Virus record (IMG/VR): IMGVR_UViG_2663762948_000002
Length of the DNA stretch: 12,850 bases
DNA from: a virus
Taxonomy: Duplodnaviria; Heunggongvirae; Uroviricota; Caudoviricetes
Direction: 5' to 3' (one strand)
Shown piece after piece: positions 1,861 to 10,511 of this stretch; within the stretch, counting starts at the first letter, position 1; every line of letters begins with the position of its first letter. The notes beneath the pieces were generated by a model, which saw only the letters and a program-made list of their open reading frames with translations, did no database searches and was not told the DNA's origin. The position numbers and the translations under genes are program-made.

Positions 1861-1962
1861 ACGACTGGCGTTGCTGTTAGCTGTCGCACCTTGCCCCTCA
1901 TAACCGGCTAAGTCAGAACTTTGTCCGGTCGCCCGTGAGTCAGAATAAAGGCGCAAAAATCA

Positions 1963-2891: not shown

Positions 2892-4349
2892 TTAGGAGCG
2901 CCAAAAAAAACCTGAAAACAATATAATAACAGGATAAATTTCAAGGCGACCAAGAATCATAGCTATGCACATTAAACATTTTGCAATGTCATTAAGCACT
3001 CCGAATGACGATGCAGTAGCCCCAAAACCTAATCCCATATTATTAATACATGCAGCCACTGTTGCAAATGATGTAAGAAAATCATATCCCATACCATTTA
3101 ACACCAGTATAAAAAACACCGTGAAGAGAGTATAAAGAAAAAAGAAACTCCATACAGACCTCATTACACGATCTGTAACTATCTTCCCTCCTACATTTAC
3201 ACTCAACAACGCTCTGGGATGAGAAAGCTGATTTATCTCGTGTTTGCTTTGTTTGAAAAGTATAAGAAATCGAAGTGACTTAATTCCACCACAAGTTGAA
3301 CCTATACATCCCCCAAAGAAACTTGACAACAGCAAAAACACTATCGTGTGCGTGGGCCAACTTGCATAATCCTGCGTAGCTAAACCATTATCAGTGAGCA
3401 TGGAGCTGGCAAGAAAAAACGAATGAATAAAACTTCCATGCAAGTCATACATACCTATATGCCAGACCTGGAAAGAGGTAACAATGATCACCCCTAAGGC
3501 TATTAACAGAAAGAAACGAAGTTCAATATCTCTGATTAAAGGTTTTATCGTTTTCCTGCTAATAACAATATACCAAAGAGTGAAGTTGAAAGCCGATAGC
3601 AGGGAAAAAGAACCAGCCACCAGCTCAACCAAATAGTTATTAAAATATCCGATACTCTCGCTATGAGTTGAGAAACCACCAAGCGAAACTGTGGAAATCC
3701 CGTGACAAATAGCATCAAACAAAGGCATTCCTGCAAGTCTATAACAGACAATACAAGCAATACCTAATAAAGAATAAGTTATCCACAGTGTCCGTGACGT
3801 ATCGGCCAGGCGGGGAGTGAGTTTGTCATCCTTAAATGGCCCCGGCATTTCTGACTGATAAAGCTTTGCACCACCAATACCCAATAATGGCAATACAGCA
3901 ACCGCCAGAACAATAACTCCTAAACCACCTATAAAATTTAACTGTGACCGATAGTACAAATATGCCCGAGGTAATGAACTAACATCATCAATTACAGTTG
4001 CTCCTGTTGTTGTTATTCCAGAAACCCCTTCAAACAGAGCATCAATGAACGTTAAATTAAGTTCTGAGTCAATCCATAAAGGGAATGCACTAATAACAGA
4101 AAACAAAATCCAAAACATTACAATTATAATAAACCCATCACGGGTACGTAATTGAATGCCAGATTTCTTAGTTGTATACCACGCTCCGCCACCAATGCAA
4201 AAAAATATAACGAAAGTTATAAAGAAAACGAACAGGCTTTTTTCTTTATAAAACAATGCTACAACCATTGGTGGCAACATTGAAAGACTATAGAGCCAAA
4301 CCAGGAACCCACACATATGAGTAACAACTCTTACATGAGATGTATTCAT
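2892..4349 (-). CDS. trkG: Trk-system potassium uptake protein TrkG/TrkH family (485 aa from the ATG at 4347-4349; the ORF extends 6 codons further to a TTG).
   Basis: Polytopic membrane protein of TrkH/TrkG length and character; from memory it closely matches E. coli TrkG (begins MNTSHVRVVTHMCGFLVW). The gene is visibly AT-richer than the flanking phage genes and sits between the lysis and packaging genes, as trkG does in the Rac prophage. Confidence 0.9.
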   Translation of the reverse strand: MNTSHVRVVTHMCGFLVWLYSLSMLPPMVVALFYKEKSLFVFFITFVIFFCIGGGAWYTTKKSGIQLRTRDGFIIIVMFWILFSVISAFPLWIDSELNLTFIDALFEGVSGITTTGATVIDDVSSLPRAYLYYRSQLNFIGGLGVIVLAVAVLPLLGIGGAKLYQSEMPGPFKDDKLTPRLADTSRTLWITYSLLGIACIVCYRLAGMPLFDAICHGISTVSLGGFSTHSESIGYFNNYLVELVAGSFSLLSAFNFTLWYIVISRKTIKPLIRDIELRFFLLIALGVIIVTSFQVWHIGMYDLHGSFIHSFFLASSMLTDNGLATQDYASWPTHTIVFLLLSSFFGGCIGSTCGGIKSLRFLILFKQSKHEINQLSHPRALLSVNVGGKIVTDRVMRSVWSFFFLYTLFTVFFILVLNGMGYDFLTSFATVAACINNMGLGFGATASSFGVLNDIAKCLMCIAMILGRLEIYPVIILFSGFFWRS

Positions 4350-4486
4350 ATCTAAATATTCTTTCAATTATAACCACCTTGCTGCAATATTATGATTATA
4401 CTGTATAAAATTTAACTCCTCTTAGATCTTACTTCACTGTTCCTTATGAAACAATCATCAAAATGAATCATATTGTAGTTAAGATT

Positions 4487-4951
4487 TTACTTTAAACACT
4501 GCTCGGTTATGTATTGCTGAGCACCTTCAAGTTGGGCCTGCATCATTACCAGTCGTTCCCGGAGGGTGAAATAATCCCGTTCAGCGGTGTCTGCCAGTCG
4601 GGGGGAGGCTGCATTATCCACGCCGGAGGCGGTGGTGGCTTCACGCACTGACTGACAGACTGCTTTGATGTGCAACCGACGACGACCAGCGGCAACATCA
4701 TCACGCAGAACATCATTTTCAGCTTTCGCATCAGCTAACTCCTTCGTGTATTTTGCATCGAGCGCAGCAACATCACGCTGACGCATCTGCATGTCAGTAA
4801 TTGCCGCGTTCGCCAGCTTCAGTTCTCTGGCATTTTTGTCGCGCTGTTCTTTGTAGGCGATGGCGTTATCACGGTAATGATTAACACCCCATGACAGGCA
4901 GACGACGATGCAGATAACCAGAGCGGAGATAATCGCGGTTACTCTGTTCAT
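4487..4951 (-). CDS. Rz: Rz-type i-spanin (inner-membrane spanin), 154 aa starting at the ATG at 4949-4951.
   Basis: Near-identical by recall to lambda Rz ([15 protein letters not shown]..., [53 protein letters not shown]); N-terminal TM segment; its ATG overlaps the endolysin TGA stop (ATGA overlap) as in lambda R/Rz. Confidence 0.92.
4546..4731 (-). CDS. Rz1: Rz1-type o-spanin (outer-membrane lipoprotein) embedded in the +1 frame inside Rz.
   Basis: 61-aa ORF entirely within Rz; signal peptide with lipobox VVGC; proline-rich (PPPPP, PPP) mature region; near-identical by recall to lambda Rz1. Confidence 0.9.
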
Positions 4952-5445
4952 TGCTGACCCCACAAACAGATTTCACGCTCAATCTCACGACGAGTCATGA
5001 GACCTTTCCATTGCTTACCGCCAGCATATGTCCAGCGACGTAGCTGATCACATGCGCCTTTGATATCGCCCTGGTTTATTTTGCGAAGAAGCGTCGATGT
5101 TCTGAAATTGCCAGCACCCACGTTGTAAACGAATGAGTAAAGAGCGCCGCGCGTTGTTTCCGGTATATCGACTTTGATGTACGGGTTAATTTGTCTGGCG
5201 ACCGTGGCAAGGTCTTTATTCAAGAGTGTTTTGCATTCTGCTTTGGTATACGTTTTACCGAGCATGATGTCTTTTCCTGTATGCCCGTGACATACAGTCC
5301 ATACACCAACAATATCTTTGTATGGTATGTAGCTGACACCTTCCAGACCATCGTTACCACTTGGGCCAGTGATTAACACTGATGCTATAGCAATTGCTCC
5401 GCCACCAATAGCAGCAGCAACGACTTTTCGTAATGATGGAGGCAT
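4948..5445 (-). CDS. SAR (signal-arrest-release) endolysin, phage lysozyme of the P21 R / E. coli RrrD type.
   Basis: 165 aa; N-terminal Gly/Ala-rich weakly hydrophobic SAR segment ([18 protein letters not shown]) followed by a lysozyme-like domain; by recall nearly identical to the DLP12 lysozyme RrrD; its ATG overlaps the holin stop (TAATG). Confidence 0.9.
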
Positions 5446-5911: not shown

Positions 5912-6307
5912 CTAACCTCGCATGTCAAAGCCAGATTTCTGAAAATCTCTGTAGACTTCCGGATTGTTGAAGGCCGGAAATTTGGCTTTATGAGCTGCGG
6001 ACTTTATCGCTTCGCAATAGGCTTTATCACCGTTACTGGTAGATATTTTTAACGCCGTGCCATCCTGAGAGAATTCCATATGCAACCTGCATTTTTTCCC
6101 TTTCCAGTTATGCGGCTCATCAAGTTTGGCATTAATTGCAGCTCTGATTCCCCGCGCTTGCGCCCCCCATTCATCCTGATCATCCCAGCGTCCTGAACTG
6201 CAACTACCTGTAGCAGTAGTTTTGTGGCAATCTGAAGGGTGTAAAGGTGTGCATCCCGCAACAAAACCGACCCAAAAAGTCAACATAACGATTTTCTTTA
6301 ATCCCAC
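5912..6307 (-). CDS. Predicted outer-membrane lipoprotein with a TolA domain III-like C-terminal domain (131 aa, GTG start).
   Basis: Signal peptide MGLKKIVMLTFWVGFVAGC with lipobox VAGC and Thr at +2; GAGGAG ribosome-binding site 6 nt upstream of the GTG; C-terminal roughly 80 aa align with the TolA C-terminal domain as I recall it (GK.C.L ... DG ... C ... AK.P ... P.VY..F) and with the downstream paralog. Confidence 0.75.
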   Translation of the reverse strand: MGLKKIVMLTFWVGFVAGCTPLHPSDCHKTTATGSCSSGRWDDQDEWGAQARGIRAAINAKLDEPHNWKGKKCRLHMEFSQDGTALKISTSNGDKAYCEAIKSAAHKAKFPAFNNPEVYRDFQKSGFDMRG

Positions 6308-6457: not shown

Positions 6458-6886
6458 TCAGGGTTTAAAATCCAGCACCCCATTTTGAAATACTTTATAT
6501 ACTTCCGGCGAAGGGGGGGCAGGTATATCAGCATTCTTTATCGCATTCATCGCTTCACGACATAAATCGAGGTCTCCACTTTCTCTTTTAACCTCCAGTA
6601 GAAGGCCATTCGGGGCCATATGCATTCTCAGTGTACACTCTTTTCCTGAATACTTACTCGCATCCCCGAACTGTTTTTCGATGGCGCTCTTGATTTGATG
6701 GGCATACAGACGGATATCCTCACTAACATCAGAAGTACGTTCAGATGAACTCACATACTGTGTCTCTATTGCTTTATCGGAGTAATATGATGTACGGTCA
6801 TGATAATTTGTCGATACAGCATCAGTGCACCCGATAATAATCCCACTAATAATCAACGTAAGAATTGATGCGCTACGAAAACCCAT
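6458..6886 (-). CDS. Predicted outer-membrane lipoprotein with a TolA domain III-like C-terminal domain (142 aa), paralog of 5912-6307.
   Basis: Signal peptide MGFRSASILTLIISGIIIGC with lipobox IIGC and Thr at +2; GAGGA ribosome-binding site upstream of the ATG at 6884-6886; C-terminus (IKSAIEKQFGDASKYSGKECTLRMHMAPNGLLLEVK...DLCREAMNAIKNADIPAPPSPEVYKVFQNGVLDFKP) strongly resembles E. coli TolA domain III, which by recall ends ...KPPSQAVYEVFKNAPLDFKP. Confidence 0.8.
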   Translation of the reverse strand: MGFRSASILTLIISGIIIGCTDAVSTNYHDRTSYYSDKAIETQYVSSSERTSDVSEDIRLYAHQIKSAIEKQFGDASKYSGKECTLRMHMAPNGLLLEVKRESGDLDLCREAMNAIKNADIPAPPSPEVYKVFQNGVLDFKP

Positions 6887-6945: not shown

Positions 6946-7477
6946 ACAGCGAATCAGATCAAATAAAACGCACATTTGTTAACATTTACACAAAGTCTGC
7001 GTGGGATATTCTGAAAGAATATCCATAATGTGGAGAGAATCTATTGAAGTGCATGGTGCCGGGTGCCTCCCGGTGAACAAAATGTTCGTGATACCTGTCG
7101 GCGACAGAAAAGGTTAATGGTATCACCCCACCGCACAGGGGGATTCACCATGCAGGAGTTTTCTTAGCAAACTCACTGCGCGCCCGGCAACTCCCAACCA
7201 CATAAAATGCGGAGTTTGTGGTATTTATGCATATAACTCGCAGGAATTATCTTAAAAAACTGATGTCGATCCGGATTAAAAAGAAGCAGGTCATCATCAG
7301 ATGACTGGAAAAAAGGAAAACAAAAAATACTCATCATACAGTTTTGATTGCAGGGATGAGCCTGCTATGCACAATATGCAGAATATAAGCAAGATAAAAA
7401 TATGCAGGCATATTATTTCGGATTTTGTTATTAACACAACCTTTTTAATAATCATTTGGCATACAATAAACCAGCCC

Positions 7478-7930: not shown

Positions 7931-8473
7931 TCAAGCCATTTTCTCAGCAAATGATTCACGCATGGGAATATATAGGGCATACTCAGCAACAGCTAACCAA
8001 TTAGCAATCCGTTTTTCGCATGTGCTAAAACACCACTCTGGGTGTGCATCATTTAGCAATTCAGCCATTTTGCGCTTAGTCATCCCCCGCCCTTCATAGC
8101 GTTGCCGGAGAATGCAAATCAATCCTGGATGCTCTGCCAGCACCTCACTTATGACTCGATCAATACATAACGCCTCTGCATCAGTACAATGCGCCAGCCA
8201 GCTCTTTTGCTTGCCGTTGATCATCTCTCGCAAAAACGCTTCCAGCTCAGCTTTCTCTATTCCCGCTTTTTTCATTCTGCGCAGGGCTTCATTAATGGCT
8301 GTTTTCGTCAGTTTTTTGGATGCCAACAACTGATTGAACATATTCCCTGACCTGCCACCGCCAATATACGACCAGCGCCCCCACATACGTAGTTTTCCCT
8401 GAATCCAGACACTTTCCAGCGTGGTGAGGCGAAGGTGTTCTCCGCTTTTTCCTGTATTCGTTGGGTAAATCAT
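7931..8473 (-). CDS. Putative late-gene antiterminator Q (Q21/Q82-like family), 180 aa.
   Basis: Occupies the Q slot, last gene of the nin-type operon and immediately upstream of terminators and the lysis cassette; start overlaps the stop of the upstream YbcO-like gene; N-terminal W..WGRW motif and a C-terminal helix-turn-helix-like segment resemble non-lambda Q proteins. Family assignment is from memory, not a search. Confidence 0.55.
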   Translation of the reverse strand: MIYPTNTGKSGEHLRLTTLESVWIQGKLRMWGRWSYIGGGRSGNMFNQLLASKKLTKTAINEALRRMKKAGIEKAELEAFLREMINGKQKSWLAHCTDAEALCIDRVISEVLAEHPGLICILRQRYEGRGMTKRKMAELLNDAHPEWCFSTCEKRIANWLAVAEYALYIPMRESFAEKMA

Positions 8474-8760
8474 AAATGACCTTTCTTTCTCCAGATTTCT
8501 TGTGTGCGAAAAACCCCTTCAGCATGCATCAGGCGCAATTCTTCTTTGGTGTAATCGCTGGTTTTTACCCGCCCGTCGATTAGATCGTGGCATGAGCTAC
8601 AGGCTATCGCCGCCTGCATATCGTGTGGTTTTGTCGCTGTTCCGCACGTCCCCGCCAGCCTGTAATGCGCCAGCACAGAGGTTTCGGGATTGTGATTGCA
8701 GTAGCCAGGGATTCTGATCTGGCACATCTGGCCTTTAGCCGCTTTACGTAAATTCACCAT
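8470..8760 (-). CDS. YbcO-like nin-region protein (Cys-rich putative nuclease), 96 aa.
   Basis: Aligns by recall with E. coli DLP12 YbcO (LRKAA.G..CQ.RIPG.CN.NPETSVLAH.RL.G.CGT.TKP.D...IACS.CHD.ID.R); conserved Cys/His pattern; translationally coupled to its neighbours on both sides. Confidence 0.7.
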   Translation of the reverse strand: MVNLRKAAKGQMCQIRIPGYCNHNPETSVLAHYRLAGTCGTATKPHDMQAAIACSSCHDLIDGRVKTSDYTKEELRLMHAEGVFRTQEIWRKKGHL

Positions 8761-9359
8761 TACGCAAACTCCAGTAGTTGTGCGGCCACATTTTCAACTT
8801 CCTCATGAGAGGAGAATTTACGAAACAGAATCCAGTTCCACAGCACATTCAGTACAGATTTATAAACCTGCTGAAACTCGACTTCGTCCATATTCGCAAA
8901 AGCGATGGATTTTGCCCGACGCCCACGGCTACCGTCCGGATAAATATGCTCGGTGTAAAATCCGGCCTGAATGGTTACCCACTCGCGGAAAGCCTCAAAC
9001 GACTTTAGCAACGCCGTATCCCGGGTTCTACGAGTCGCAACGGTGTTAAGGTATTGCTCTGCGGCATCACTCAGGGCTGGCGTGTGTTCCCGACCAACTG
9101 ATTCGCACAGGTAATCAACGAAACCAGACAGCAGTTCTCGTTCGCGAGGCGTGATCGCCCCACCGACCGGAGTCCAGTAATCGAATCCCAGTTGCAGGAG
9201 TTTGAAAAAACGCTTGTGGAATGCGTAGTTACGCACACGCTTAAAGTCTGCGTGTATCCACTCACCTATTTTGATTTGATGCAGAAAATCGCAACTCTCC
9301 GGCGTCGCCGGGAGAAGTAAACCAGAAGAAGTTTGTTTGACCAGTTGTATATGCGCCAT
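8760..9359 (-). CDS. Lambdoid nin-region protein of unknown function (199 aa); possibly the DUF1367-type family, unverified.
   Basis: Intact 199-aa ORF with its stop overlapping the YbcO-like start; position upstream of YbcO/Q as in nin regions; no motif I can assign with confidence. Confidence 0.55.
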   Translation of the reverse strand: MAHIQLVKQTSSGLLLPATPESCDFLHQIKIGEWIHADFKRVRNYAFHKRFFKLLQLGFDYWTPVGGAITPRERELLSGFVDYLCESVGREHTPALSDAAEQYLNTVATRRTRDTALLKSFEAFREWVTIQAGFYTEHIYPDGSRGRRAKSIAFANMDEVEFQQVYKSVLNVLWNWILFRKFSSHEEVENVAAQLLEFA

Positions 9360-9417
9360 TTCTCAATCTCTCGATGGCGCAGCGCAGCAGATGCCAGTTG
9401 TTCAGGCTGACGAATAA

Positions 9418-9445
9418 AGTATAAATAAACTGGCTATGGTGTAAA
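9418..9445 (-). promoter_or_regulatory. Possible sigma70 promoter upstream of the nin-Q operon.
   Basis: On the minus strand: -35 TTTACA (plus 9440-9445), 16-bp spacer, -10 TATACT (plus 9418-9423), about 60-75 nt upstream of the 9359 ATG. Confidence 0.3.
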
Positions 9446-9639
9446 GCCCCACATAGCATGAACAAACACTACATATCAAATAGCTGGTACAAGGATAGAA
9501 ATACGACATTTATTATTAAAAACGATTAGATAAATTACATTTTAATGTTATGCAAAAGTTCTTTTTTATCATAACATTTCAATAAAAGCATTACAGATGC
9601 AATCATCCCGTCATCATCAATTATTTAAGGTGGTTAAAC

Positions 9640-9726
9640 ATGGAAAATAACAAGTTCGCACATCTCGCTCCTTTTTTATCCGTAATCCTTTTCGCTTGTT
9701 GTTTTATATGGGCATTATTTTTATAA
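9640..9726 (+). CDS. Candidate small hydrophobic protein (28 aa, MENNKFAHLAPFLSVILFACCFIWALFL); possible small membrane protein or type I toxin-like peptide.
   Basis: ATG at 9640 preceded by ribosome-binding site AAGGTGG (9628-9634, 5-nt spacer); a single predicted TM helix; lies in an otherwise ORF-free AT-rich region. Too short for statistical support. Confidence 0.3.
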   Translation: MENNKFAHLAPFLSVILFACCFIWALFL

Positions 9727-10117
9727 AGTAGCCACATGATAAGTTGCTGGAATCATATTTCCCACTCAAGTCATTAACATTTGATAAGATATATCTAAAA
9801 GGACGCCTTTACATTATTTATGTGTATATAATTTATTTATATACACAGTAAAGGTATCCTGGGAAAATATTTATCGTTAAAAAATACATCATAAATAATC
9901 AAGCTGAAATTTCAGAACACAACTAATACACACAATAAGGTTCAGTAACAATAATCTATGTGGACTACATCGAGATTTTTTGATTAAACTTTAATAACTT
10001 ATTCCTAACACACAGAATGCATAAACTAAAAGTAAAACAAATAGTTATACGAAAAACAACCATATTTATTATATCTTCTCCTCTAATCAACATATCAATT
10101 ATGTGTTTCATAACAGC

Positions 10118-10157
10118 TTGACATAACCCTCAAAAACACGCATTTATAATGCATGTT
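10118..10157 (+). promoter_or_regulatory. Promoter of the yeaR-like gene with an overlapping NsrR-type operator (11-1-11 inverted repeat).
   Basis: AACACGCATTT-A-TAATGCATGTT at 10135-10157 closely matches the NsrR consensus as I recall it; TATAAT at 10145-10150 lies inside the operator; TTGACA at 10118-10123, although the 21-bp spacing to that -10 is non-canonical. Confidence 0.5.
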
Positions 10158-10172
10158 TTTGAGGAGGTGGTT

Positions 10173-10511
10173 ATGACACACAAGAGAATTCCTAAAGATT
10201 GGGTAATCAAACGCTCAACTCCGTTCTTCACAAAAGAGAACGTACCTTCAGCGTTATTAACACATCATAATACAGCAGCAGGTGTTTTTGGGCAGTTGTG
10301 CGTAATGGAAGGCACTGTAACATATTATGGTTTTACTGATGAGAATGCTACTGAACCGGAGATAAAAGTAGTCATTAATGCTGGCGCTTTTGCAACAAGC
10401 CCACCACAATACTGGCACCGTGTTGAACTAAGCGATGATGCTCAGTTTAATATTAACTTTTGGGTCGCTCCAGACTTCTCGGGCGAAAAAGTCTATAGCA
10501 CCAAAAAATAG
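10173..10511 (+). CDS. YeaR-like protein (DUF1971 family), 112 aa from the ATG at 10173. The ORF opens at 10149 but the ribosome-binding site supports 10173.
   Basis: Ribosome-binding site GAGGAGGTGG 3-4 nt before the ATG at 10173; the protein shares motifs with E. coli YeaR by recall (RSTPF, SVM.G.V.Y.G..DE...EP, FNI.F.VAP); the gene is AT-rich. Confidence 0.75.
   Translation: MTHKRIPKDWVIKRSTPFFTKENVPSALLTHHNTAAGVFGQLCVMEGTVTYYGFTDENATEPEIKVVINAGAFATSPPQYWHRVELSDDAQFNINFWVAPDFSGEKVYSTKK

What the first reader, a model, noticed from the sequence alone, without database searches (positions are those of the whole stretch)
9640..9726. 28-codon hydrophobic ORF with a strong ribosome-binding site inside the AT-rich island
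The only well-initiated ORF in the AT-rich stretch encodes MENNKFAHLAPFLSVILFACCFIWALFL: a short polar N-terminus followed by a single hydrophobic helix, the shape of small membrane proteins and type I toxins. The ribosome-binding site AAGGTGG is 5 nt from the ATG. If it is a type I toxin, an antisense or 5'-UTR-overlapping small RNA would be expected nearby.
Basis: inference. Interest (0 to 1): 0.45.

Follow-up and report, generated by a model that had tools for sequence, protein, structure and literature searches.

The report
Unannotated 28-residue prophage membrane peptide gene
The 28-codon reading frame is a real, conserved but never-annotated gene for a tiny membrane peptide carried by lambda-like prophages in about one fifth of complete E. 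coli genomes; it may be a new small toxin, but that is unproven.

Summary
An ATG ORF lies at 9640-9726 (+) and encodes MENNKFAHLAPFLSVILFACCFIWALFL. Its AAGGTGG ribosome-binding site is 6 nt upstream (not 5), in a 26-30% GC island. It is the only short ORF there with a good ribosome-binding site.

It is more than chance. About 280 related loci give 18 protein variants, all exactly 28 residues. Substitutions fall mostly on third codon positions (6/10/17), pN/pS is 0.12-0.31, and permutation P is 0.0001-0.003. The antisense ORF is broken in other clades.

The ORF always follows a 43-nt AT-rich block (88-98% identical between clades, more than the ORF's 79-82%) and a 5' hairpin. This ~240-bp module borders the nin/Q genes of lambdoid prophages, on the strand opposite the phage genes. 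The cargo on its other side varies (hok/sok, an S8 peptidase, the DUF1971 island here).

It occurs in 1176 of 5426 complete E. coli genomes, including CFT073, plus Shigella and E. ruysiae. It was unannotated in every sampled record and matches no known family.

The type I toxin reading is plausible but unproven. A candidate antisense promoter overlaps the start codon in three clades, but it is weakest in this window's clade. No terminator, toxin homology, polar tail or significant mRNA structure supports it.

The parts
9488..9516 (+). Putative promoter of the small gene: -35-like TACAAG (9488-9493), 17-nt spacer, -10-like TATTAT (9511-9516). The predicted transcript start is about 9522-9524, giving a 5' UTR of about 117 nt.
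   Evidence: Inference. TATTAT is invariant in 154 of 154 loci retrieved by peptide alone. Homology between clades A and C begins at the TACAAG hexamer. Clade B has TTG(C/T)TG-16-TATTAT instead. The -35 is weak and the consensus scanner did not flag this site.
9510..9552 (+). Conserved 43-nt AT-rich block (TTATTATTAAAAnnGnTTAnAnAAATTnnATTTTAATGTTATG). It would contain the -10 element and the first ~30 nt of the leader.
   Evidence: The block is 88-98% identical between clades, against 79-82% for the ORF and 20-65% for neighbouring non-coding segments. In 204 block occurrences, 201 are followed 85-92 nt later by an intact 28-codon ORF. It occurs once in the 20.8-kb prophage stretch L001.
9544..9578 (+). 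5' hairpin of the leader: AATGTTATG / CATAACATT, with an 8-9 bp stem.
   Evidence: Reported by the repeat finder as I3. It is the only helix kept in both the MFE and centroid folds. Across 48 distinct sequences all 8 pairs hold, and the only variants are G-C to G-U and U-A to U-G, which pair in a + strand RNA but not in its complement.
9627..9633 (+). Shine-Dalgarno sequence AAGGTGG, 6 nt before the ATG.
   Evidence: -8.4 kcal/mol to the 16S 3' end. An SD-like purine run is kept in all clades (AAGGTGA, AAAGTGA, AAGGTA).
9640..9726 (+). 28-codon gene encoding MENNKFAHLAPFLSVILFACCFIWALFL: a polar 8-residue N-terminus and a 20-residue hydrophobic helix that runs to the C-terminus.
   Evidence: There are 18 protein variants, all 28 aa. 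Variable sites per codon position are 6/10/17. pN/pS is 0.12-0.31. Permutation P is 0.0001-0.003. All other frames are broken in at least one clade.
9620..9646 (-). Candidate antisense promoter: -35 TTTCCA (9646..9641, complement of TGGAAA in ATGGAAAA), 15-nt spacer, -10 AATAAT (9625..9620).
   Evidence: The homologous site with a 16-nt spacer was flagged by the scanner in L004 (CATAAT), L003 (TATGAT) and L044 (AATAAT). All six hexamer variants seen keep A at position 2 and T at position 6, in the 15-nt-spacer register for the two clade-A forms. In this window the spacer is 15 nt and the site was not flagged. No transcript evidence exists.
9800..9860 (.). Long imperfect hairpin 3' of the gene. 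It is a possible transcript boundary, with a T-run on the minus-strand side.
   Evidence: the repeat finder I2 and I11. It was not flagged as a terminator. In other contexts a minus-strand terminator-like hairpin lies right after the ORF: the hok terminator in L004 (scanner-flagged) and a hairpin in L003 (read from the sequence). Whether it belongs to the module is inference.

Best explanation
The ORF is a real protein-coding gene for a 28-residue single-pass inner-membrane peptide. It sits on a self-contained ~240-bp expression module made of a weak promoter and conserved leader block, a 5' hairpin, a Shine-Dalgarno site and the ORF. The module lies at the edge of the variable cargo region just upstream of the nin/Q genes of lambdoid (Rac/Qin-like) prophages. 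It points against the phage's early-right transcription. It should therefore be expressed from its own promoter in the lysogen, like a moron, and be opposed by read-through antisense transcription during lytic growth.

What is shown: the ORF is under purifying selection as a protein, it is tightly linked to the conserved leader block, it keeps this position while the cargo varies, and it is unannotated with no detectable homology.

What is inferred: membrane insertion (from hydropathy) and the promoter and transcript start.

What is hypothesised as the most likely mode of action: the peptide is a membrane-acting, toxin-like product kept low by RNA-level control. The regulator would be a cis-antisense RNA that starts about 28 nt upstream of the ATG and pairs with the conserved 5' leader. 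That would make it a new type I toxin-antitoxin-like module that favours prophage retention or aborts infection.

Sub-probabilities: real translated gene about 0.9; membrane peptide about 0.85; true type I toxin-antitoxin pair about 0.3-0.4.
For: Coding evidence. About 280 loci gave 18 protein variants, all 28 aa. Intact ORFs were 201 of 204 in block-retrieved loci and 73 of 77 in metagenome loci. Third-position bias is 6/10/17. pN/pS is 0.12-0.31 with pS about 0.5-0.6. Permutation P is 0.0001-0.003. There are no indels in the ORF, while the UTR length varies from 85 to 92 nt. The antisense ORF is broken by a stop codon in clades B and C. The ORF has the only strong SD in the island.

Module evidence. 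The leader block is 88-98% identical between clades and is present in 154 of 154 peptide-retrieved loci. The 5' hairpin has wobble-only variation that fits a + strand RNA.

Context evidence. The left neighbour is almost always one of two alternative first nin genes; the right neighbours fall into at least 10 sequence clusters, including hok/sok and an S8 peptidase. E. coli K-12 Qin carries rem at the same place.

Toxin-like hints. The peptide is small and hydrophobic. It neighbours a hok/sok site. The non-coding leader is more conserved than the ORF, as expected where an RNA-RNA or regulator contact is under selection. A minus-strand promoter-like site was flagged at the homologous position in three diverged clades, and A2/T6 of its -10 are kept in all six hexamer variants. 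A terminator-like site about 110 nt downstream exists in clade B.
Against: There is no experimental evidence of transcription, translation or toxicity. The peptide matches no known type I toxin model. It lacks the polar or aromatic C-terminal tail and the tandem duplication that Fozo et al. 2010 describe as shared by many known toxins (PMC2887945).

In this window's clade the antisense promoter has a 15-nt spacer and was not flagged. No minus-strand terminator was found there.

The number of promoter-like hits in these AT-rich regions does not exceed the number in shuffled sequence. The -35 of the antisense candidate is fixed by the Met-Glu-Asn codons in any case.

mRNA folding is not better than shuffles (z = -0.54 for the window, +1.74 for L004). 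The candidate antisense RNA is also unremarkable (z = -0.36). The + strand promoter has a poor -35 element.
Confidence: 0.4

Rival explanations
1. The gene and peptide are real but the peptide is not a toxin. It would be a lysogen-expressed accessory membrane peptide that binds a host or phage membrane protein through its helix. Possible roles are superinfection exclusion, or modulation of a transporter or sensor, as small E. coli membrane proteins such as MgrB, AcrZ and MgtS do. No antitoxin RNA would be needed. The conserved leader block would then be a promoter, operator or translational-control element.
For: All the coding and module evidence applies equally. Invariant residues cluster on one half of the helix (P11, L13, S14, L17, F18, C21, W24, A25, L28), and the variable ones (V15, A19, C20, F22, I23, L26) mostly on the other. 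That pattern suits a specific helix-helix contact. The window's clade keeps a strong SD and an intact ORF in about 465 genomes even though its antisense promoter is poor. The L004 mRNA is less structured than shuffled sequence, which is unlike an inert toxin mRNA. Many known small membrane proteins are not toxins (review PMC12648545).
Against: The helix-face trend is not significant (permutation P = 0.23). No partner gene co-varies with the module, because the right-hand neighbours differ. This reading does not explain why a 43-nt leader block is more conserved than the protein-coding part, unless a regulator binds there.
Confidence: 0.38
2. The conserved unit acts mainly as an RNA or DNA element and the ORF is incidental. 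It could be a small RNA, a transcription insulator or terminator zone between the cargo and the nin genes, or a regulatory region for the divergent nin/Q promoter.
For: The most conserved part is non-coding. A good minus-strand promoter-like site (TTTACA-16-TATACT, 10 of 12 matches) lies about 65 nt upstream (to the left) of the block and faces the nin genes. The last 17 nt of the ORF are nearly invariant at the DNA level. The minus-strand RNA of the window folds better than shuffles (z = -2.0).
Against: The substitution pattern is that of a protein. Synonymous changes are 3-8 times more frequent per site than replacements, and no stop or frameshift occurs in about 99% of copies. By contrast, 31-50% of random mutation sets of the same size introduce a stop. 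The SD is kept in every clade. No Rfam family matches 9360-10090.
Confidence: 0.07
3. The ORF is a leader peptide or upstream ORF that controls a downstream gene in cis, for example the DUF1971/YeaR-like gene at 10173.
For: It is short, has a strong SD, and lies about 450 nt upstream of a same-strand gene in this window.
Against: The downstream gene is not conserved. In other loci the ORF is followed by a terminator and convergent hok, by a convergent S8 peptidase, or by other cargo. The DUF1971 gene has its own SD and a palindromic operator-like site right upstream. Purifying selection acts on the whole peptide, not on a few regulatory codons.
Confidence: 0.03

Closest known systems
Chromosomal type I toxins of E. 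coli with very short hydrophobic products: Ibs (18-19 aa), ShoB (26 aa), DinQ (27 aa), TisB and ZorO (29 aa), and their sRNA antitoxins Sib, OhsC, AgrB, IstR-1 and OrzO
   Same: The size is similar (28 aa) and there is a single predicted transmembrane helix. The ORF lies in an otherwise unannotated intergenic stretch and is missed by gene callers. It has a leader of roughly 100 nt. A candidate antisense promoter overlaps the 5' region.
   Different: There is no sequence similarity. There is no polar or charged C-terminal tail and no tandem copies. The locus sits in a prophage and varies in presence between strains, rather than being a fixed chromosomal locus. No antitoxin RNA has been demonstrated, and no divergent sRNA with a repeated complementary segment was found. 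Toxicity is untested.
hok/sok (hokD, hokW) loci of lambdoid prophages
   Same: They occupy the same region of the prophage, between the replication genes and the nin genes. In clade B and in CFT073 the small gene is convergent with hokD and the two are separated by a single hairpin. In both cases the control would come from an antisense RNA against the leader.
   Different: Hok is about 50 aa with a periplasmic tail, an overlapping mok frame and a long folded mRNA. None of these features is present here. The small gene also occurs without hok, as in this window and in L003.
Phage morons (own knowledge: lambda bor and lom; HK97 gp15, a small membrane superinfection-exclusion protein)
   Same: It is an extra gene inserted between conserved phage genes. 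Its base composition is deviant (26-30% GC). It is oriented against the flanking phage operon. It has its own putative promoter and hairpins at its 3' side. Its presence varies, since E. coli K-12 Qin carries rem at the same position.
   Different: It is much smaller than described morons. The promoter and terminator are only predicted. The module stays fixed next to the nin genes while the cargo beside it changes, so it behaves more like a border element than like the swapped cargo.
Small E. coli inner-membrane proteins found by ribosome profiling or tagging (own knowledge: YohP, YkgR, YoaJ/YoaK, MgtS; and the novel CFT073 small membrane proteins of preprint 10.64898/2026.09.28.754932)
   Same: It is of the same class: fewer than 50 aa, one helix, and unannotated. 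CFT073 carries the clade B copy.
   Different: It shares no sequence similarity with any of them. SMP3 and SMP7 of the preprint differ in size and position (35 and 63 codons). Whether SMP10, 11, 12 or 14 corresponds to this gene could not be checked, because the supplements are not held.

Membership tests
Type I toxin-antitoxin system (generic definition) | A small (under about 70 aa) hydrophobic protein with a predicted transmembrane helix | tested here: met
   The peptide has 28 aa. Residues 9-28 have a mean Kyte-Doolittle value of +2.5. Criteria are from PMC2887945.
Type I toxin-antitoxin system (generic definition) | A cognate antisense or partly complementary small RNA that represses the toxin mRNA | tested here: inconclusive
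   A minus-strand promoter-like site over the start codon was flagged in clades B1, B4 and C. In the window it has a 15-nt spacer and was not flagged. A terminator-like site exists only in clade B. No upstream direct repeat that could encode a trans sRNA was found. No transcript data are available.
Type I toxin-antitoxin system (generic definition) | Growth arrest or membrane damage when the peptide is overproduced | not testable with these tools
   This needs inducible expression compared with a start-codon mutant.
Type I toxin-antitoxin system (generic definition) | A C-terminal stretch rich in polar, charged or bulky residues, and/or tandem duplication of the locus (features Fozo et al. 2010 used as search criteria) | tested here: not met
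   The peptide ends in ...WALFL with no tail. Genomes hold 1-2 copies and no genome had more. These features are common in known toxins rather than strictly required.
Known type I toxin families (Hok/Gef, Ldr, Ibs, ShoB, TisB, DinQ, ZorO, Fst and others) | Sequence match to the family model | tested here: not met
   No family model of any kind was matched. The only weak NCBIfam hit was to a lipoprotein signal peptide, far below its cut-off. Pfam gave no hits. PHROGs gave only E-values of 0.1 or worse. PADLOC gave none.
Phage moron | An extra gene between conserved phage genes, present in some relatives and absent in others, with deviant composition | tested here: met
   GC is 0.26-0.30 against about 0.48 in the phage genes. 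The module is present in 1176 of 5426 genomes. E. coli K-12 Qin has rem at the same site.
Phage moron | Its own promoter and terminator, with expression from the repressed prophage | tested here: inconclusive
   Only a weak consensus promoter is present (TACAAG-17-TATTAT). There is no canonical + strand terminator in the window. Expression has not been measured.
Bacterial lipoprotein or signal peptide | A conserved lipobox [LVI][ASTVI][GAS]C followed by a mature domain | tested here: not met
   The weak hits to lipoprotein signal models come from the hydrophobic core. The residues before the cysteine are LFA in clade A but FVL, FVF or FVS in clade B. Only 7-8 residues would follow cleavage.
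Leader peptide or upstream ORF | A fixed downstream gene whose expression it controls | tested here: not met
   There are at least 10 different downstream contexts, several of them convergent.

The most novel reading that the evidence does not exclude
The module is a previously unrecognised type I toxin-antitoxin family of E. coli and Shigella prophages. It would pair a 28-residue membrane toxin with a cis-antisense RNA whose promoter -35 element is the complement of the toxin's own start-codon region. The conserved AT-rich leader block would be the RNA contact or ribosome-loading site. The module sits at the cargo hot spot upstream of the nin/Q genes. During lytic growth the phage's early-right read-through transcription would act as a second antisense, linking toxin output to the lysogeny-lysis state.
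Probability: 0.3. Interest if true: 0.6.

Novelty: new member of a known kind. Interest (0 to 1): 0.42.

Why it matters
More than a thousand complete E. coli genomes carry a selected gene that annotation pipelines skip, most likely because it is shorter than 30 codons. These genomes include the uropathogenic model strain CFT073, and Shigella flexneri carries it too. Small prophage-encoded membrane peptides can kill, protect against other phages, or retune host membrane proteins. A new family at a prophage cargo hot spot next to hok/sok is therefore a concrete, cheap target for small-protein, toxin-antitoxin and phage-defence research. It is also a clean example where comparative evidence alone establishes a sub-30-codon gene.

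Tried and rejected
I replaced it with three searches. Exact look-up of 8 variants among 15 billion proteins found none. An exhaustive phmmer search with a 30-aa padded query found one hit, an over-extended 58-aa call of the same ORF that carries no name. tblastn and pattern scans were also run.
- The antisense 38-aa ORF (9621-9737, minus strand) is rejected as the real gene, because it has a stop codon in clades B and C.
- The lipoprotein or signal-peptide reading is rejected, because the lipobox is not conserved.
- The leader-peptide reading for DUF1971 is rejected, because the downstream genes vary.
- A trans-encoded divergent sRNA of the IstR, OhsC or OrzO type was not found. No direct repeat links the upstream region to the leader.
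- The leader block as a repeated operator elsewhere in the prophage: only one copy exists in 20.8 kb.
- By eye, the block resembles an H-NS nucleation motif (TAGATAAATT), but clade B5 does not keep it. No LexA box is present.
- SD/AUG sequestration by codons 8-12 (CAU...CUCCUUU) is drawn by RNAalifold. It shows only one-sided changes, and the folds are not better than shuffles. I treat it as unsupported.
- Long-range pairing between the leader and the ORF 3' end is not consistent between clades.
- A conserved helix face is only a non-significant trend (P = 0.23).
- E. coli K-12 ylcH, a small ORF next to the first nin gene of DLP12, is co-directional with ybcN and unrelated.
- Stx and other sequenced phages: only 4 of 50,697 phage records carry the gene.
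- Literature string searches for the peptide and its DNA found nothing relevant. The CFT073 Ribo-seq preprint could not be checked for this ORF, because its supplementary tables are not held.
- A guess at the position in the CFT073 reference genome (NC_004431.1, 3.03-3.07 Mb) landed in a different prophage.

Full report
**1. The observation**

The window is part of an E. coli lambdoid prophage of the Rac/Qin type. The nin-like genes lie on the minus strand: DUF1367 at 8760-9359, DUF1364 at 8470-8760, and the Q-like DUF1133 gene at 7931-8473. The lysis cassette, trkG and the terminase genes are also on the minus strand. A DUF1971 / MFS / LysR cargo lies on the plus strand. Between them is a stretch of 26-30% GC.

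ATG is at 9640 and TAA at 9724-9726, and the 28 codons encode MENNKFAHLAPFLSVILFACCFIWALFL. AAGGTGG is at 9627-9633, 6 nt before the ATG rather than 5. Among the 16 other short ORFs in the island, it is the only one with a good Shine-Dalgarno match at a workable distance (-8.4 kcal/mol). Residues 9-28 are strongly hydrophobic.

**2. Is it more than chance?**

By itself it is not, since 17 ORFs of 20 aa or more overlap this 790-nt stretch. The comparative evidence decides the matter.
- tblastn and pattern scans found copies in induced E. coli phages, in E. coli chromosomes, and in Shigella flexneri and Escherichia ruysiae. Those last two were the only hits among 185,579 species-representative genomes.
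- Copies were also found in 193 IMG/VR stretches and 77 metagenome contigs, largely from gut samples.
- Together these give 18 protein variants and at least 20 DNA haplotypes of the ORF. Every intact copy has 28 codons.
- The three deep clades are A (this window), B and C. They differ at 15-18 of 84 ORF positions.
- Variable sites per codon position are 6/10/17.
- pN/pS is 0.12-0.31, with pS about 0.5-0.6.
- Randomly placed substitutions of the same number and type give as few amino-acid changes, without a stop codon, in only 0.01-0.3% of trials for the A/B1/C contrasts. In 31-50% of trials they create a stop.
- The ORF has no indels, whereas the leader length varies.
- The 38-codon ORF on the opposite strand carries a stop codon in clades B and C.

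I conclude that this is a protein-coding gene under purifying selection.

**3. Anatomy of the unit**

Conservation between clades has two peaks.
- The first is a 43-nt AT-rich block at 9510-9552, which is 88-98% identical between clades.
- The second is the SD plus ORF (71-82%).
- The rest of the leader is 43-65% identical, and the sequence upstream of the block 20-45%.

The block and the ORF are inseparable. All 154 loci retrieved by peptide alone carry TATTATTAAAA and ATTTTAATGTTATG upstream. Of 204 block occurrences, 201 are followed 85-92 nt later by an intact ORF.

The end of the block forms the 5' arm of a hairpin (9544-9578). Its 8 pairs hold in all 48 distinct sequences. The only variants are G-U and U-G wobbles, which fit a + strand RNA and would be mismatches in the complement. 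It is also the only helix that survives in the centroid folds.

Homology between clades A and C starts at TACAAG (9488-9493), 17 nt before the invariant TATTAT (9511-9516). Clade B has TTG(C/T)TG-16-TATTAT. I read this as a weak promoter, which gives a leader of about 117 nt. That is inference, and the consensus scanner did not flag it.

**4. Context**

The left neighbour is almost always one of two alternative first nin genes. These share an 80-nt segment with a good minus-strand promoter-like site (TTTACA-16-TATACT). The right-hand flanks fall into at least 10 sequence clusters. Identified examples are:
- the DUF1971 island, in this window;
- convergent hok/sok, in L004 and CFT073;
- an S8 peptidase with an FtsH-like protein, in L003.
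In L034 a NACHT-like NTPase gene lies further downstream of the module.

E. coli K-12 Qin carries rem at exactly this position.

The gene therefore marks the nin-side border of a prophage cargo hot spot and points against the phage's early-right transcription. It behaves like a moron-type, lysogen-expressed gene. Read-through transcription during lytic growth would be antisense to it (inference).

**5. Distribution and annotation status**

The module is present in 1176 of 5426 complete E. coli genomes, at 1-2 copies each. About 465 genomes carry clade A and about 708 carry clade B-like copies. No annotated feature lay under the match in any of the 80 listed rows.

None of 8 variants is present among about 15 billion predicted proteins. 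An exhaustive HMMER search of 1.84 billion representative proteins found only one hit, an unnamed 58-aa over-extended call of the same ORF.

There is no match in NCBIfam, Pfam, PHROGs, PADLOC or PDB sequences. No Rfam family matches the island's intergenic part. No paper in the library contains the peptide or its DNA.

**6. What does it do?**

- The peptide has the right size and hydrophobicity.
- The location is one where hok/sok is found.
- The non-coding leader is more conserved than the protein-coding part.
- The scanner flagged a minus-strand promoter-like site at the homologous place in clades B1, B4 and C. This site is TTTCCA-16-CATAAT, TATGAT or AATAAT, and its -35 is the complement of TGGAAA in the start region.
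- All six hexamer variants seen keep the critical A2 and T6 of the -10, counting the two clade-A forms in the 15-nt-spacer register.
- Clade B has a terminator-like hairpin about 110 nt downstream, inside the block.

Evidence against it:
- In this window's clade the spacer is 15 nt, and the scanner found neither a promoter nor a terminator.
- Promoter-like hits in these AT-rich regions are no more frequent than in shuffled sequence.
- The -35 is fixed by the Met-Glu-Asn codons in any case.
- There is no polar C-terminal tail, no tandem duplication and no toxin homology.
- The + strand RNA is not more structured than shuffles (z = -0.54 and +1.74).
- The SD/AUG pairing that RNAalifold draws shows only one-sided changes.
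- The candidate antisense RNA is unremarkable (z = -0.36).

A rival of comparable weight is a non-toxic accessory membrane peptide that contacts a partner helix. Invariant residues lie mostly on one half of the helix, but this trend is not significant (P = 0.23). The leader-peptide and RNA-only readings are largely excluded.

My estimates are: real translated gene about 0.9; membrane peptide about 0.85; type I toxin-antitoxin pair 0.3-0.4; non-toxin membrane peptide about 0.4.

**7. Comparison and novelty**

In kind it is known. It resembles the very short E. coli type I toxins (Ibs, ShoB, DinQ, TisB, ZorO), phage morons, and the many small membrane proteins found by ribosome profiling. It is not a member of any described family by sequence. 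I file it as a new member of a known kind.

A 2026 preprint reports Ribo-seq of CFT073, which carries the clade B copy next to hokD. It lists six novel small membrane proteins. SMP3 and SMP7 are not this gene, by size and position. The other four could not be checked, because the supplementary tables are not held. Those data (GSE301040) offer the quickest decisive test.

**8. Verdict**

- Interest is moderate at 0.42. This is a solid, unannotated, widely carried small gene with an unusually conserved leader, but its mechanism is still open.

Noticed in passing
window 6997-7183 (-): Strong Rfam match to the sRNA family STnc100 (86.6 bits, E = 7e-18, full length). It lies downstream of the Q-like antiterminator gene, which is where a lambdoid late-promoter leader RNA would be.
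   Followed up: no
window 10132-10160: A near-perfect palindrome (AAAAACACGCATT / AATGCATGTTTTT, 13-nt arms, 92% complementary) sits just upstream of the DUF1971/YeaR-like gene. That gene's real start is 10173, with SD GAGGAGGTGG. From my own knowledge of the K-12 yeaR promoter it looks like an NsrR-type operator. It also caused a spurious microRNA hit in Rfam.
   Followed up: partly
window 9418-9445 (-): A promoter-like site (TTTACA-16-TATACT, 10 of 12 matches) faces the first nin gene. It is conserved in loci that have two different first nin genes. It suggests that the nin/Q operon of these prophages has its own promoter, placed back to back with the small gene.
   Followed up: partly
window ~11684 (junction), compared with L001 12326-13619: Compared with E. 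coli strain C2, this window lacks 1,294 bp. The deletion removes the 3' part of the MFS transporter gene and most of the gamma-glutamylcyclotransferase gene of the cargo island. There is also a second difference near window 1904-1908.
   Followed up: partly
window 2892-4349 (-), 5912-6286 (-) and 6458-6886 (-): Host-like genes lie inside the prophage late region. trkG (AT-rich, 33-43% GC) sits between the lysis cassette and the terminase genes. Two TolA C-terminal-domain proteins sit between the Q gene and the holin gene.
   Followed up: no
L003 3142-6084, L004 ~4190-4350, L034 1520-2793 and 3779-6037: The slot to the right of the small gene holds different cargo in different prophages. Examples are an S8 peptidase with an FtsH-like protein, and a hok/sok locus; a 752-aa P-loop (NACHT-like) NTPase gene also lies further downstream in L034. 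L034 additionally has an IS2 insertion whose junction lies about 50 nt upstream of the conserved block. It looks like a defence or moron hot spot.
   Followed up: partly
L088 3652-3903 (E. coli K-12 Qin) compared with L087 ~4865-5322 (CFT073): K-12 Qin carries the gene rem at exactly the position where CFT073 and many other strains carry the 28-codon module, between the DUF968-adjacent small gene and the hokD terminator.
   Followed up: yes
window 9800-9860: A long imperfect hairpin (22-nt arms, with a perfect 11-nt inner palindrome TGTGTATATAA / TTATATACACA) lies in the AT-rich spacer between the small gene and the DUF1971 gene. Its function is unknown.
   Followed up: no
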